Shown here piece after piece: positions 21,001 to 24,000 of a DNA stretch of 64,000 nt. The stretch spans positions 12,682 through 76,681 of the forward strand of contig JBBQQR010000009.1 of the NCBI GenBank assembly GCA_038215615.1, in the 5' to 3' direction. The position numbers are program-made. The stretch comes from Vulcanimicrobiales bacterium (GTDB lineage Bacteria > Vulcanimicrobiota > Vulcanimicrobiia > Vulcanimicrobiales > Vulcanimicrobiaceae). The stretch's first letter is position 1; every line of letters starts with the position of its first letter.

Positions 21001-24000
21001 GCGCGCTCGCATCCAAGAATCAGCTCTACAAAGGCCTGCGCTCGACGCTGTGGTGCATTCACGACGAAACGGCGCTCGCCGAAGCGGAGATCGAATACAA
21101 GCCGCGCGTCTCGCCGTCGGTCACGGTACGTTTTACCGCGAACGACGCCCAACGAATGGCACTCTTAAGTGCCATGGCGAGCCTGTCGAACCACCCCGAG
21201 CAGCGCGGCGTAGCCGCGCAAGCCGAGGGGCTTTCAAAGCTAAGCCTCCTCATCTGGACCACGACACCGTGGACGCTGCCCGCAAATGCCGCGATCGCGC
21301 TGCGTCCGGATGCCGAGTATGGTTTGTACGTGGTGGGCGATGAAGCGGTGATTGTTGCCGATGCGCTCGCCGAAAAAACGTTAGGCGACCGCGTCGTGGA
21401 CGCGCGGCGAATCGGGGGCGCGAAGGGAAGCGCGTTGGAAGGATTGGCGGTCCGCCATCCGTTCATGGATCGCGACACGCCGATCGTGCTCGCCGATTAC
21501 GTCGACATGGAAACCGGAACCGGCGCGGTACACACGGCGCCGGGGCACGGTGCGGACGACTTCGAAACGGGCGTGAAATACAATTTGCCGATTATCAATC
21601 CGGTCAATTCTGGCGGCGTTTTCACGAGCGAAGCGGGACCGTACGCCGGCATGCACATTTGGAAAGCCAATCCGAAGATCGTCGAGGATCTGCGCGCGAG
21701 CGGCGCGCTTTGGGATTATGCGGACTTCGAACACAGCTATCCGCACTGCTGGCGCTGCCACAACCCGGTGATCTTCCGCGCAACCGCGCAGTGGTTCATC
21801 GCGATGGATCAAAACCGGCTGCGCGCGCGCACGATCGAAAACATCCGCAGCGTGCAGTGGACGCCCGCGTGGGGCCAAGAACGCATCGCGCAAATGCTCG
21901 AGACGCATCCCGAGTGGTGCATCTCGCGTCAGCGCACGTGGGGAACGCCGATTCCGGCAATTGTTTGCAAGGGATGCGGCGAATCGATCCTCGATCCCGA
22001 AGTCGCCCGCATTACTGCCGAAATCTTTCGGGAACGCGGCGCCAATGCGTGGTGGACCGATCCGGTGCAGAGTTTTCTGCCGCCAAATTTTGCCTGCCCC
22101 AAGTGCCGAAGCACGACGTTCGAAAAAGAAAAGAACATCGTCGACATCTGGTTTGAATCGGGCGTGACGCACTTGGCCGTGCTCGGCAAAAACGGCTTGC
22201 CTTGGCCGTCCGATCTGGTGCTGGAAGGCGGCGATCAGTATCGCGGCTGGTTCCGCAGCTCGATCGTGACGGCGACCGCGGTTAAAGGCGTGGCGCCTTA
22301 TAAACACGTGGTGAAGAACGGCTGGGTCAACGACGAGAGCGGCCGGCAGATGAGCAAATCGCTCGGCACCGGCATCGACGCGCAGGAAGCGATGCAAAAA
22401 TGGGGCGCGGACGTGCTGCGTTTGTGGGCGGCTTCGGTGGAGTTCGTCGACGACGTGCGCTTCGGGCCGCACGTCATCGAACAAGTCAGCCGCGTTTACC
22501 GCAACATTCGCAATCGCCTTCGCTTCATGGTGAGCAATCTTGGCGACGTGAATCCGGACGATCTCATCGCGCGCGAGAACATGGAGCCATTCGACGCGCT
22601 GGCGTGCGAGCAAGTCGATCGCTGGACCGTGACCGTCCTGGAGTCGCTGCGCGACTACGACTTACACGGCGCTTATTTAGAGATCGTGCGTTTCGAAGGA
22701 GATGACCTCTCAAGCTTCTATTTCGATGCGCTGAAGGACCGGCTCTATTCGAGCGCAGCCGGGGCGTCGCGCCGGCGCAGCGCGCAGAGCGCGCTCTTCT
22801 ATATATTGCAGCGCGTGCTGGCAGTGCTGGCGCCACTCCTTTCCTTTACGGCGGAAGAAGCGTGGCAAGCGGTGCCGGCGGAGTTGCGCCGCAGCGACAG
22901 CGTCTTCGACCTGACTTTCGAATCGGGGCGCCCGGCCGGAGAAAAGGCTGCCGCCCTCTGGCAGCTGCTGAAAGAATTGCGCCAGCAAGTCGCCGCTAAC
23001 GAGTCGCCGCGCGACTTTGAGGCCGACGCGAGCAGCGTTGTCGTTCCGGCGGCGATGCTGAACGACGTGACGGCGTTGGGCGACGGACTCCGCGAAGCTC
23101 TTGTGGTTTCCACTGTCGAGCGCGTGTCGGGTGACGGCGAGGAACGTCGCGTCTATTTACTGCCCGCTAAGGGCTCCAAATGCAAACGCTGCTGGAAATA
23201 CCTACCGCTTGGAAGCGATGCACAACATCCGTCGCTGTGCGCGCCGTGCGCAGAAACGGTTCATGCACTCGCTTAGCGTAGGGCGTTCATGTTGTCATCG
23301 TGAGCCTGTCGAACGACCCTGAGTAGCGCATCTGCGATGCGCGGATCGAAGGGCTCGGGGCCTTGTTAAATGTTTCCTCGGTCGCAGTAGAGACGCATGC
23401 GACGTTATTACGTGTACATGTTACAGTGCGCCGACGGCAGCTTCTATATCGGGATAACGAACAATTTGGATTTGCGCGTTTGGCAGCACAACGAAGGTAT
23501 CGATACGCACTGCTATACGTACTTGAGGCGCCCCGCGACACTCGTCTATTCCACCGATTTCGATGACCCGAAAAGGGCCATCTCGTGGGAAAAAAGCTCA
23601 AAGGCTGGTCACGTAAAAAGAAACAAGCTCTCATCGATGATAACTGGAGCCGAATAAGCGAGCTCGCGCGTAGAAAAATCGTGTGAACGCGCCCCCTCGA
23701 CCTGGGCGCTTTCGCGCCCTGCTCGGGGTCCTTCGACAGGCTCAGGATGACAACTGATAGGCGACGCTATTTCAGCGTCTGGACAAACTCCGCAACGTCG
23801 TGAAGATCGCGCGGCGTCATCTTCCAGCGCGGCATGACGGGATCGAGCACCTTGCCCTGGTTATCGACGCCGGTGGAAATGGCGCGCTCCAAACTTTGGA
23901 GCGTATAGGCCGGTTTGACGGACGCGAGCGCCTTTTGCCGCAAGTCGGCGCTCACGGCTCCTCCCGGCAGGTGCACGCCGCCCGAACCATCGGCGCGATG

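What a model noticed while it worked through the whole genome (the two positions that open the first line are those of the whole stretch)
21163..21238. Structured 62-80 nt palindromic repeat (VILSLSKDPEQR element) inserted in frame into essential genes
A 62-80 nt repeat with two covarying hairpin modules (CCYGAGC-[hairpin]-GTCGARGG) occurs about 46-55 times in this 2.2 Mb genome, a third of the copies inside protein-coding genes, in frame, including isoleucyl-tRNA synthetase, RF3, NAD-ligase LigA, Lhr helicase and acetyl-CoA carboxylase; its 25-nt head GTCATCCTGAGCYTGTCGAAGGACC recurs letter for letter in genomes of at least seven other phyla. I read it as a non-autonomous mobile element that, like the Rickettsia palindromic elements, colonises coding sequence and is translated (V[IM][LV]SLS[KN][DH]PEQR..EG or CHPELVEGP forward; ..FDNLRMT / ..AQDDN reverse), whose fold is kept by selection on the nucleic acid and whose head is the recognit [...]
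Evidence so far: nhmmer iteration found 46 copies at E<=1e-3; covariance model R1 finds 55 at E<=0.01. 27 full-length copies aligned (A1, call 50): 96.4% of 388 cells pair, 10 of 15 pairs change on both sides, covariation 0.418 vs 0.130 in 500 shuffles (0/500 reach it) and <=0.086 when partners are slid; e.g. CATCCT..AGGA <-> CATGGT..ACCA <-> CATCGT..ACGA. Both modules carry tandem G.A/A.G next to the stem. Genic copies: IleRS g01129 aa230 LLSAMASLSNHPEQRGVAAQAEG; RF3 g01437 aa282 VIVSPSNHPEQRAEG; LigA g01607 aa228; GH38 g01602 aa103; ACC g01061 aa444; Lhr g00558 aa629; thymidine phosphorylase g01166 aa262; PrimPol g02245 twice; reverse strand in NuoG g01742, WhiA g01154, g01164, g01697. The third frame of e [...]
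(Added by a program. Inside this text positions count along the whole contig: contig position 12,682 is position 1 of the stretch shown here. "Call 12" and the like, gene names such as g00115 and contig names such as C1 are that model's own, and its searches are not shown. The text may have been shortened before it was handed on; [...] marks where a part breaks off. The agent that wrote the report below was given it as the finding of a first reader that could run no searches.)

Follow-up and report, generated by a model that had tools for sequence, protein, structure and literature searches.

The report
Ssn-nuclease hairpin repeats inside genes
The repeat is real and sits in frame inside essential genes, and its conserved head looks like the DNA hairpin recognised by a small GIY-YIG (Ssn-type) single-strand DNA nuclease whose gene lies 2 kb away between two inverted copies, a system first described in 2025.

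Summary
Observation confirmed. nhmmer finds 47 copies of a ~60-nt two-hairpin repeat in the 2.21-Mb genome, 7 of them in the window. Pairing covaries. 22 copies lie in Pfam-verified ORFs without stops, including IleRS, RF3, LigA, Lhr, NuoG and PurL. The 25-nt head occurs exactly in seven other phyla.

An 86-aa GIY-YIG ORF (window 23397-23657) lies between two inward-facing copies. This is the NTS-ssnA-NTS architecture of the Ssn single-strand DNA nucleases (Chenal 2025, PMC11893778). Among 31 relatives, heads (4 or more) occur in exactly the 15 genomes with a close Ssn homologue. Homologues in Bacteroidota carry the same loop with compensated stems.

I read the head as a divergent Ssn-related motif. 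The published search pattern hits 0 of 47 copies. Module 2 is a lineage-specific second hairpin.

The window's ssn gene is frameshifted in an A6 run. The dispersal mechanism is not shown; there is no target duplication.

This scan has noted Ssn hairpins in frame in genes on other genomes before. Verdict: new variant of a known kind.

The parts
21170..21230 (+). Reported copy of the two-hairpin element (CATGG..CCA stem variant), in frame in ileS, aa 232-252
   Evidence: nhmmer E 3.4e-10; peptide SAMASLSNHPEQRGVAAQAEG; orthologous loop comparison
20475..23276 (+). ileS (isoleucyl-tRNA synthetase) ORF, 933 aa, host of the reported copy
   Evidence: Pfam PF00133 E 1.8e-113
23292..23353 (+). Left flanking copy of the element (CATCG..CGA stem variant), head pointing inward to the ssn gene
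   Evidence: nhmmer E 7.1e-13; inverted-repeat arm 23291-23329
23397..23657 (+). Small single-domain GIY-YIG ORF (86 aa as it stands), Ssn-like. It is frameshifted at the A6 run 23590-23595. The frame that matches the 96-aa orthologues runs on to the stop at 23684-23686
   Evidence: PF01541 E 4.1e-14; orthologue comparison; same letters in a second assembly of the probable source run
23693..23753 (-). Right flanking copy of the element (CATCC..GGA variant), inverted relative to the left one
   Evidence: nhmmer E 6.9e-16; arm 23716-23754, 87% complementary to 23291-23329
26095..26154 (-). Copy in the 5' part of the tgt ORF (aa 87-107; the TGT domain starts at aa 116). It may lie upstream of the true start
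41167..41226 (+). Copy antisense in whiA, read as SPREARFARPSGSFDNLRMTT (aa 59-79)
51147..51208 (+). Copy spanned by long minus-strand ORFs (540 and 498 aa) with no Pfam match; coding status not settled
53533..53569 (+). Partial copy (head plus short tail) in frame in a thymidine-phosphorylase-like gene, SVILSLSKDPERS (aa 353-365)

Best explanation
The element is a lineage-specific, two-hairpin version of the hairpin repeats that accompany Ssn nucleases. Ssn proteins are single-domain GIY-YIG enzymes that bind a hairpin in single-stranded DNA and cut just upstream of it.

The head, TGTCA-stem-GAGCYTGTCGA-stem, is the Ssn-related motif. It has a near-invariant 5' TGTCAT tag, a short stem that is free to covary, and a conserved loop closed by tandem G.A pairs. 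Module 2 repeats the same YGAGC..CGARGG frame around a variable GC stem and occurs only in this Eremiobacterota family.

The candidate cognate enzyme is encoded at window 23397-23657, between two inward-facing copies.

Shown here: the architecture, the co-occurrence across genomes, the covariation, and the in-frame residence in genes.

Inferred:
- The nuclease recognises this head as ssDNA.
- Its nicks, repaired by template switching or ectopic copying, amplify the repeat locally (tandem partial heads) and occasionally seed new sites, much as RAYT does for REPINs.
- Copies persist in coding sequence because 4 of the 6 frames are open, and because only in-frame inserts in permissive loops and linkers survive selection.
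- In this genome the nuclease gene looks inactivated by a frameshift, so the copies may now be decaying.
For: 1. Gene and flanks. The ORF has a GIY-YIG domain (E 4.1e-14). Inverted arms lie at 23291-23329 and 23716-23754.

2. Published system. Chenal 2025 (PMC11893778; I read Results part 1, the family section, the Discussion and the SRM methods) describes Ssn genes flanked on both sides by GTCAT-headed hairpins. It shows ssDNA-only, strand-specific cleavage upstream of the hairpin, and draws the analogy to insertion sequences and to RAYT/REP.

3. Relatives. A head with up to 2 mismatches is present at 4 or more copies in 15 of 31 genomes. These are exactly the 15 with an Ssn hit at E<=1e-21. 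The other 16 have 0-2 heads and only weak hits.

4. Flanks in relatives. 12 of 16 strong-hit loci have a head within 500 bp of the gene, and 7 have inward-facing heads on both sides. 0 of 14 weak-hit (paralogue) loci have one.

5. Matching stem variants. In G016 the ssn-flanking heads are the CACCCT variant, which also makes up most of that genome's heads listed. The ssn genes of G003, G006 and G018 are flanked by CATGGT heads.

6. Wider homologues. Of the 50 homologue loci from genome contigs, Aquimarina and Mariniflexile (47-52% identity) carry the same loop with compensated stems. More distant homologues carry other GTCAT hairpins, including a near-canonical NTS in L181. A Pedobacter homologue (41% identity) is flanked by GTCA..CTGAGCGGAGT[CT]GAAG.. 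heads.

7. Conservation profile. TGTCAT and the GA dinucleotides are the most conserved columns, and the stems covary.

8. Local amplification. There are three 21-nt partial-head tandem units in Lhr and 20-22-nt partial-head arrays beside ssn genes.

9. Copy number against gene state. Among the five closest genomes, those with an intact 96-aa Ssn have 43, 41 and 50 heads. The frameshifted G000 has 23 and the truncated G007 has 14.
Against: - The published degenerate SRM pattern matches 0 of the 47 copies, and its 13 hits in the genome lie elsewhere.
- I could not test assignment to cd10448. The best PDB sequence matches are UPF0213 proteins (1zg2 E 2.9e-10, 1ywl E 6.8e-08), and NCBIfam gave nothing.
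- The only Neisseria small GIY-YIG I could fetch is 27% identical (E 2e-07) and is not NTS-flanked.
- 4 of 16 strong-hit loci show no head within 500 bp. G014 has a 43%-identical homologue but no heads.
- The window's own gene is frameshifted, so it cannot be assumed active.
- Only 3 of 125 head loci hold the gene within 1.5 kb. This is expected for a single-copy gene but gives no extra support.
- Copy orientation does not follow local GC skew (10/12/13/12, p=0.77).
- There is no target duplication, and GIY-YIG nucleases are hydrolytic, so no strand-transfer chemistry is known for them (general knowledge).
- The relatives are kin, so the 15-versus-16 split overstates independence.
Confidence: 0.72

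Rival explanations
1. The repeats are targets, not passengers. On this reading the GIY-YIG gene is a homing-type selfish gene that inserts into pre-existing inverted pairs of a hairpin repeat. The repeat itself spreads or is maintained by another process or for a host function, for example limiting recombination of incoming ssDNA as proposed for Neisseria NTS.
For: - Gene-less inverted head pairs of about 90-150 nt exist (L031, L059, L119).
- The paper shows that NTS/SsnA modulates transformation (PMC11893778, abstract and Discussion).
- Heads occur with many different tails in different phyla.
Against: - The ssn cassette sits beside ileS on the same contig in G000, G007, G008, G009 and G010. 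This suggests vertical inheritance at one locus rather than repeated homing.
- Head counts appear to track the state of the gene in the five closest genomes.
- This rival does not explain the tandem partial-head arrays.
Confidence: 0.15
2. The element acts as RNA: a structured motif with tandem G.A pairs (k-turn- or loop-E-like) in mRNAs and intergenic transcripts, bound by an RNA-binding protein. The nuclease gene nearby would then be incidental.
For: - Covarying helices with conserved GA/GA dinucleotides.
- 16 of 22 genic copies are on the sense strand.
Against: - There is no Rfam match at the gathering score on the whole window, nor at E<=1 on 21100-23800.
- 6 genic copies are antisense, and genome-wide 22 copies are on the plus strand and 25 on the minus strand.
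- The association with ssn genes holds across phyla.
- Characterised Ssn enzymes do not bind RNA (PMC11893778, Results).
Confidence: 0.07
3. It is a classical MITE, moved by a DDE or HUH transposase that is missing from this 54-contig assembly.
For: - The element is short, dispersed and partly palindromic.
- The assembly is fragmented (54 contigs).
Against: - No target-site duplication: the longest word shared by the two flanks averages 3.44 nt in 32 copies against 3.88 nt at 2000 random sites.
- Solo copies have no terminal inverted repeats.
- No Y1_Tnp (PF01797) match in the genome, which is rated 100% complete.
- The same head is joined to unrelated tails in other phyla.
Confidence: 0.04

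Closest known systems
Ssn nucleases with NTS/SRM hairpin repeats (SsnA of Neisseria meningitidis; NTS contains the dRS3 core; Chenal et al., Nat Commun 2025, PMC11893778)
   Same: - A small single-domain GIY-YIG gene bracketed by inverted hairpin repeats.
- The repeat begins with a conserved (T/C)GTCAT tag that gives it an orientation.
- Tens to hundreds of dispersed copies occur in the same genome.
- Gene and repeat co-occur across phyla.
   Different: - The hairpin here has a 4-bp stem plus a tandem-G.A/G-C/5-nt-loop core, in place of a 7-bp GC stem with a 3-nt loop. It is not matched by the published SRM pattern (0 of 47).
- In this family it is fused to a second hairpin, giving a ~60-nt unit.
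- 28-47% of copies lie inside ORFs, against 2% reported for NTS in N. meningitidis (paper, Discussion).
- The local gene is frameshifted.
- Enzyme activity is untested.
REP/REPIN elements with RAYT (domesticated IS200-type Y1 transposases)
   Same: - A single-copy nuclease gene flanked by its own hairpin repeats.
- The gene is inherited at a fixed locus.
- The repeat population seems to depend on the gene.
- The stems covary.
   Different: - The enzyme is a hydrolytic GIY-YIG nuclease, not an HUH Y1 transposase. No PF01797 match was found in the genome.
- The tag is TGTCAT, not GTAG or CGTC.
- REPs are extragenic, whereas these copies are often genic.
Rickettsia palindromic elements (RPE; recalled from Ogata et al. 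2000, not read here)
   Same: Short palindromic repeats that sit in frame inside conserved protein genes and are translated as extra loops.
   Different: - No sequence comparison with RPEs was made here.
- RPEs are longer (about 100-150 bp, recalled) and have no named mobilising enzyme.
- The Ssn paper lists Rickettsia among genomes with more than 300 SRMs (Discussion), which hints at a link that I did not test. A search for 'Rickettsia palindromic' together with 'GIY-YIG' found 0 papers.

Membership tests
Ssn/SRM system (Chenal 2025) | Single-domain GIY-YIG protein of about 90-100 aa | tested here: met
   PF01541 is the only Pfam domain, residues 4-70 of 86. Orthologues in G008, G009 and G010 are 96 aa.
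Ssn/SRM system (Chenal 2025) | Assignment to CDD cd10448 (GIY-YIG_unchar_3) rather than the UPF0213/YhbQ group | not testable with these tools
   No CDD is available here. The best PDB sequence hits are UPF0213 proteins 1zg2 and 1ywl. NCBIfam gave no hit. A second, unflanked 96-aa paralogue matches at E 5.1e-9 in G000 (C4) and at E 1e-4 to 1e-9 in relatives, and no relative lacks a small GIY-YIG hit. That is a separate group.
Ssn/SRM system (Chenal 2025) | Gene flanked 5' and 3' by inverted hairpin repeats | tested here: met
   Arms 23291-23329 and 23716-23754. 7 of 16 orthologue loci also have heads on both sides. The same holds for L054, L063 and L114.
Ssn/SRM system (Chenal 2025) | Repeat carries a conserved 5' GTCAT tag directly before the stem | tested here: met
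   The TGTCAT columns are at least 90% to 100% conserved in 26 copies.
Ssn/SRM system (Chenal 2025) | Repeat matches the published degenerate SRM search pattern | tested here: not met
   0 of 47 copies match. The genome has 13 hits, all elsewhere. The paper describes the pattern as a manually built search tool drawn from 29 genomes (Methods). I therefore treat this as placing the repeat outside the described motif range, not as excluding the system.
Ssn/SRM system (Chenal 2025) | Gene and repeat co-occur across genomes | tested here: met
   The 15 of 31 relatives with 4 or more heads are the same 15 with an Ssn hit at E<=1e-21. Two of the 16 negative genomes (G019, G032) are unpublished records.
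Ssn/SRM system (Chenal 2025) | Protein cuts ssDNA (not dsDNA or RNA) upstream of the hairpin, on one strand only | not testable with these tools
   This needs biochemistry. The local gene is frameshifted.
REPIN/RAYT | Flanked gene is a Y1 HUH transposase (PF01797) | tested here: not met
   No PF01797 match in the genome. The flanked gene is GIY-YIG.
MITE (classical) | Terminal inverted repeats and target-site duplication | tested here: not met
   No flank duplication above the random control. The two ends of solo copies differ.
Rfam RNA families | Match to a curated covariance model | tested here: not met
   Only a tRNA at the gathering score in the window. Nothing at E<=1 in 21100-23800.

The most novel reading that the evidence does not exclude
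Ssn-type GIY-YIG nucleases maintain REPIN-like populations of hairpin elements that, unlike REPs and Neisseria NTS, routinely colonise coding sequence in frame and are translated as extra loops in essential enzymes. The tandem-G.A head would be a distinct, very old specificity class, kept almost letter for letter in at least eight phyla by co-evolution with its nuclease. Loss of the nuclease, as by the frameshift here, would start the decay of the repeat population. If so, in-frame palindromic inserts such as the Rickettsia RPEs may have the same enzymatic origin.
Probability: 0.3. Interest if true: 0.65.

Novelty: new variant of a known kind. Interest (0 to 1): 0.45.

Why it matters
- It extends the Ssn/SRM system to Eremiobacterota and to a hairpin class that the published search pattern does not detect. 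Surveys based on that pattern therefore probably undercount these systems.
- It documents that such hairpins can make up a quarter to a half of their copies inside conserved genes (IleRS, RF3, LigA), unlike the 2% reported for Neisseria. This bears on how proteins tolerate and acquire loop insertions.
- Ssn enzymes are being developed as ssDNA tools, and a new recognition class with a well-defined loop would add to that toolkit.

Tried and rejected
- Rfam: no family at the gathering score (window) or at E<=1 (21100-23800).
- NCBIfam on the nuclease: no hit.
- Second small GIY-YIG gene (C4:51560-51769): I read its flanks and saw no element. It is the universal paralogue.
- Linking directly to Neisseria SsnA: an NTS scan gave 129 loci, but tblastn with the window protein found nothing convincing in them (best E 6e-4). 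L203, which has an inverted NTS pair 443 nt apart, holds only repeat-derived ORFs. The 91-aa N. lactamica GIY-YIG is 27% identical and is not NTS-flanked. I cannot say whether it is the SsnA orthologue.
- Supplements of the Ssn paper: 12 of 14 files were searched for parts of this head, with no occurrence. Two files were not searched.
- Orientation against replication strand: no bias by local GC skew.
- Target-site duplication: none.
- Folding energy: weak z-scores, so stability alone does not single the element out.
- Literature: no paper holds 'Rickettsia palindromic' together with 'GIY-YIG'. Searches on GIY-YIG with MITE terms, COG2827, Eremiobacterota with repeat and palindromic, and the head letters (only unrelated primers) found no description of this element. 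Apart from the Ssn paper, all papers were seen only as search listings.
- Expression: no RNA holder was listed for the stretch. Only contigs of the probable source sample could be laid.
- Earlier-findings look-up by sequence found nothing.
- My per-frame stop tally in the second half was confounded by alignment offsets, and I do not use it.
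Full report
**What is at the coordinates.** Window 21163-21238 holds one copy of a ~60-nt repeat (nhmmer hit 21170-21230, E 3.4e-10). 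It lies inside the 933-aa isoleucyl-tRNA synthetase ORF 20475-23276 (PF00133, E 1.8e-113). There it is read as SAMASLSNHPEQRGVAAQAEG, aa 232-252. The window is contig C9:12682-76681 of a 2,210,573-base, 54-contig genome with 61% G+C.

**Census.** I started from 17 clean copies. Three nhmmer rounds gave 45, 47 and 47 hits at E<=0.01. 32 hits are full length: 59-62 nt for 25 of them, one of 56 nt, and 6 long variants of 75-86 nt. Seven copies lie in the window. The 25-mer head with up to 3 mismatches hits the window 4 times, against 0 in 100 shuffles.

**Structure.**
- I aligned 26 of the 32 full copies, leaving out the 6 long variants.
- The unit is TGTCA-[TCCT-GA-G-CYTGT-C-GA-AGGA]-C-[CCC-GA-GC-A-(GC stem, loop, GC stem)-AA-G-T-C-GA-GGG].
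- For the 17 pairs I named, 95.5% of 441 cells pair and 10 pairs change on both sides.
- The covariation score is 0.387 against 0.133 (0 of 500 shuffles reach it) and at most 0.081 when partners are slid.
- In module 1 the stem comes in three compensated forms: CC/GG, CG/CG and GG/CC.
- The most conserved columns are TGTCAT and the GA dinucleotides.
- Single copies fold only modestly better than shuffles as DNA (z -1.65, -2.00, -2.52, +0.34). The evidence for structure is therefore comparative, not energetic.

**Coding copies.**
- Stop-free ORFs of at least 190 aa span many copies. Pfam confirms real genes for 22 copies.
- 13 are internal: biotin carboxylase-BCCP linker aa 445, RF3 aa 284, Lhr aa 635, WhiA aa 59 (antisense), IleRS aa 232, thymidine-phosphorylase-like aa 353, NuoG aa 700 (antisense), LigA aa 230, PurL aa 389, PrimPol twice, and two molybdo-flavoprotein subunits (antisense).
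- 3 form C-terminal tails: LplA/B-type ligase, chorismate-binding enzyme, sigma-70.
- 6 lie near N-termini and may be upstream of the real start.
- 16 copies are sense and 6 antisense.
- Four of the six frames of the unit are open. The actual genic peptides match these.

**The missed neighbour.**
- 120 nt downstream of ileS, an 86-aa ORF (23397-23657) has a GIY-YIG domain (E 4.1e-14).
- It lies between two inverted copies of the element, with arms 23291-23329 and 23716-23754 that are 87% complementary.
- The genome has only three GIY-YIG matches: this ORF, an unflanked 96-aa paralogue on C4, and a 683-aa ORF that I take to be UvrC from its length, without checking.

**Known system.**
- A literature search led to Chenal et al. 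2025 (PMC11893778). I read Results part 1, the family section, the Discussion and the SRM methods.
- Ssn proteins are single-domain GIY-YIG nucleases (cd10448). SsnA of N. meningitidis binds the NTS hairpin (CGTCATTCCCGCGMAVGCGGGAATCYRG, which contains dRS3) only as ssDNA and only on one strand. It cuts upstream of the hairpin.
- 42% of homologues are flanked on both sides by Ssn-related motifs (SRMs).
- The authors compare NTS-ssnA-NTS with insertion sequences and with RAYT/REP.
- They report that NTS is rarely inside genes (2%).

**Tests of the link.**
1. Homologues elsewhere. Among 50 homologue loci from genome contigs, the closest ones carry head-like motifs on both sides with compensated stems, for example GTCAGACTGAGCTTGTCGAAGTC. 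This covers Eremiobacterota at 44-81% identity and also Bacteroidota (Aquimarina, Mariniflexile) at 47-52%. More distant homologues are flanked by other GTCAT hairpins, including a near-canonical NTS in a Patescibacteria locus (L181).
2. Co-occurrence in 31 relatives. Heads (up to 2 mismatches) number 4 or more in 15 genomes and 0-2 in 16. The same 15 have an Ssn hit at E<=1e-21. The other 16 have only weak hits to the universal paralogue, with G014 intermediate at 5.4e-16. Two of the 16 negatives (G019, G032) are unpublished records, and these tallies rest partly on them.
3. Flanks in relatives. 12 of 16 strong-hit loci have a head within 500 bp and 7 have inward-facing heads on both sides. 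0 of 14 weak-hit loci do.
4. Variant matching. In G016 the flanking variant (CACCCT) also makes up most of that genome's heads listed. The ssn genes of G003, G006 and G018 are flanked by the CATGGT variant.
5. Other phyla that carry the exact head. A Pedobacter genome has a 41%-identical homologue flanked by GTCA..CTGAGCGGAGT[CT]GAAG.. heads. A verrucomicrobial genome has three tandem homologues with GTCATCCTGAGCGAAGGCGAGCGGAAGG flanks. One Dehalococcoidia genome gave no hit with this query.

**Points against membership.**
- The paper's degenerate SRM pattern hits 13 places in this genome and none of the 47 copies.
- I could not run CDD. The best PDB sequence matches are UPF0213 proteins.
- I could not obtain a verified SsnA for direct comparison.

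**State of the local gene.**
- Orthologues in G008, G009 and G010 read ..WEKKLKGWSRKKKQAL.. to 96 aa.
- In the window the same residues appear in another frame after the A6 run at 23590-23595, ending at 23684-23686. The gene is therefore frameshifted.
- A Logan contig of the probable source run covers 22900-23752 with no difference or gap at about 6x depth. The frameshift is thus not an artefact of this one assembly, though the data are not independent.
- G007's gene is truncated.
- Head counts are 43, 41 and 50 for the three intact genomes, against 23 (G000) and 14 (G007). This is suggestive, but it rests on five related genomes.

**Mobility.**
- The exact head occurs in 125 or more loci of seven other phyla. 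It is joined to different tails, often as the terminal inverted repeat of a 75-110-nt palindrome.
- RF3 site: congeners carry different forms of the insert, while G011, and apparently G010, lack it, as do the other genera.
- IleRS site: 5 of 10 genus members keep a recognisable peptide and 4 are decayed; G006 gave only a fragment and was not aligned. Other genera lack the insert, and G014 has a different head type in the same loop.
- Lhr site: G007 and G009 have one element. G000 has it plus three 21-nt partial-head tandem units. G004 and G010 are 57 nt shorter. G008 keeps a remnant of the GG variant.
- LigA and BC-BCCP sites also differ in length among congeners (not aligned in detail).
- There is no target duplication, no Y1 transposase and no skew bias.
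- The data therefore show old insertions with local expansion, decay and deletion. They do not show recent transposition.

**Mechanism.**
- Shown: the architecture, the co-occurrence, the covariation and the translation-compatible frames.
- From the paper: ssDNA-specific cleavage 5' of the hairpin.
- Inferred: with inward-facing heads, the predicted cuts fall just outside each end of the cassette, one on each strand.
- Inferred: nick repair by template switching would explain the tandem partial heads, and rare ectopic copying would explain dispersal.
- Inferred: copies survive in genes only where the length is a multiple of three, the frame is open and the site is a tolerant loop or linker.

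**Standing.** The system is published. This is a divergent motif class in a new phylum with an unusually high genic share. Earlier notes of this scan report the same kind (Ssn hairpins in frame in genes) in at least 71 other genomes. I reached the reading before that look-up, and those notes agree with it.

Noticed in passing
window 23586-23686: The ssn-like gene is frameshifted at an A6 run (23590-23595). The frame that matches the 96-aa orthologues continues to a stop at 23684-23686. A second assembly of the probable source reads has the same letters.
   Followed up: yes
L008 (G000:C4:38206-40935), about 60 nt directly upstream (gene sense) of the element copy at C4:38971-39031: Three tandem 21-nt units, each holding 7 nt of flank plus the 5' half of the head, precede the full element in Lhr. 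Similar 20-22-nt partial-head arrays stand beside ssn genes in L146-L148.
   Followed up: partly
L020:2560-2770 (G000:C4:51560-51769, minus strand): A second small GIY-YIG gene (96 aa) has no flanking repeats. Weak hits to it or to similar genes occur in all 31 relatives, so it is probably a housekeeping UPF0213-type paralogue.
   Followed up: partly
G000 contigs C3:76897-76977, C4:37705-37785, C18:41466-41528, C16:39974-40058: A longer subfamily (75-86 nt) begins with AGCCTG[CT]CCTGAGC...GTCGAAGGG in place of the TGTCAT head. Solo copies of that motif are scattered in the genome (seen).
   Followed up: no
relatives G016 and G017; L052, L127: Long tandem arrays of heads occur, with periods of about 27, 38-40, 51 and 74-75 nt. 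G017 has 144 heads and G016 has 107.
   Followed up: no
G007:C23, G008:C11, G009:C66, G010:C6: The ssn cassette lies within about 2-3 kb of ileS on the same contig in four congeners, as in the window. This points to a fixed, vertically inherited locus.
   Followed up: partly
L437, L440, L444 (verrucomicrobial genome G036:C5:443132-445759): Three tandem Ssn-like genes sit 0.5-2 kb apart, each with its own GTCATCCTGAGCGAAGG.. flanks. One has two in-frame TGA codons.
   Followed up: no
L023, L039, L044, L106 (Syntrophaceae and a delta-proteobacterium): The exact head is fused to a different hairpin module, CCCTCACCTC..TCTCCC-loop-GGGGAGAGGA. This suggests modular recombination of repeat parts between families.
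   Followed up: no
G000:C3:105209-106601: Six direct repeats with a 276-nt period, sharing TTGAGCTGGTCGACCATCGT..., showed up in a loose motif scan. This is probably a repeated protein domain and is unrelated to the element.
   Followed up: no
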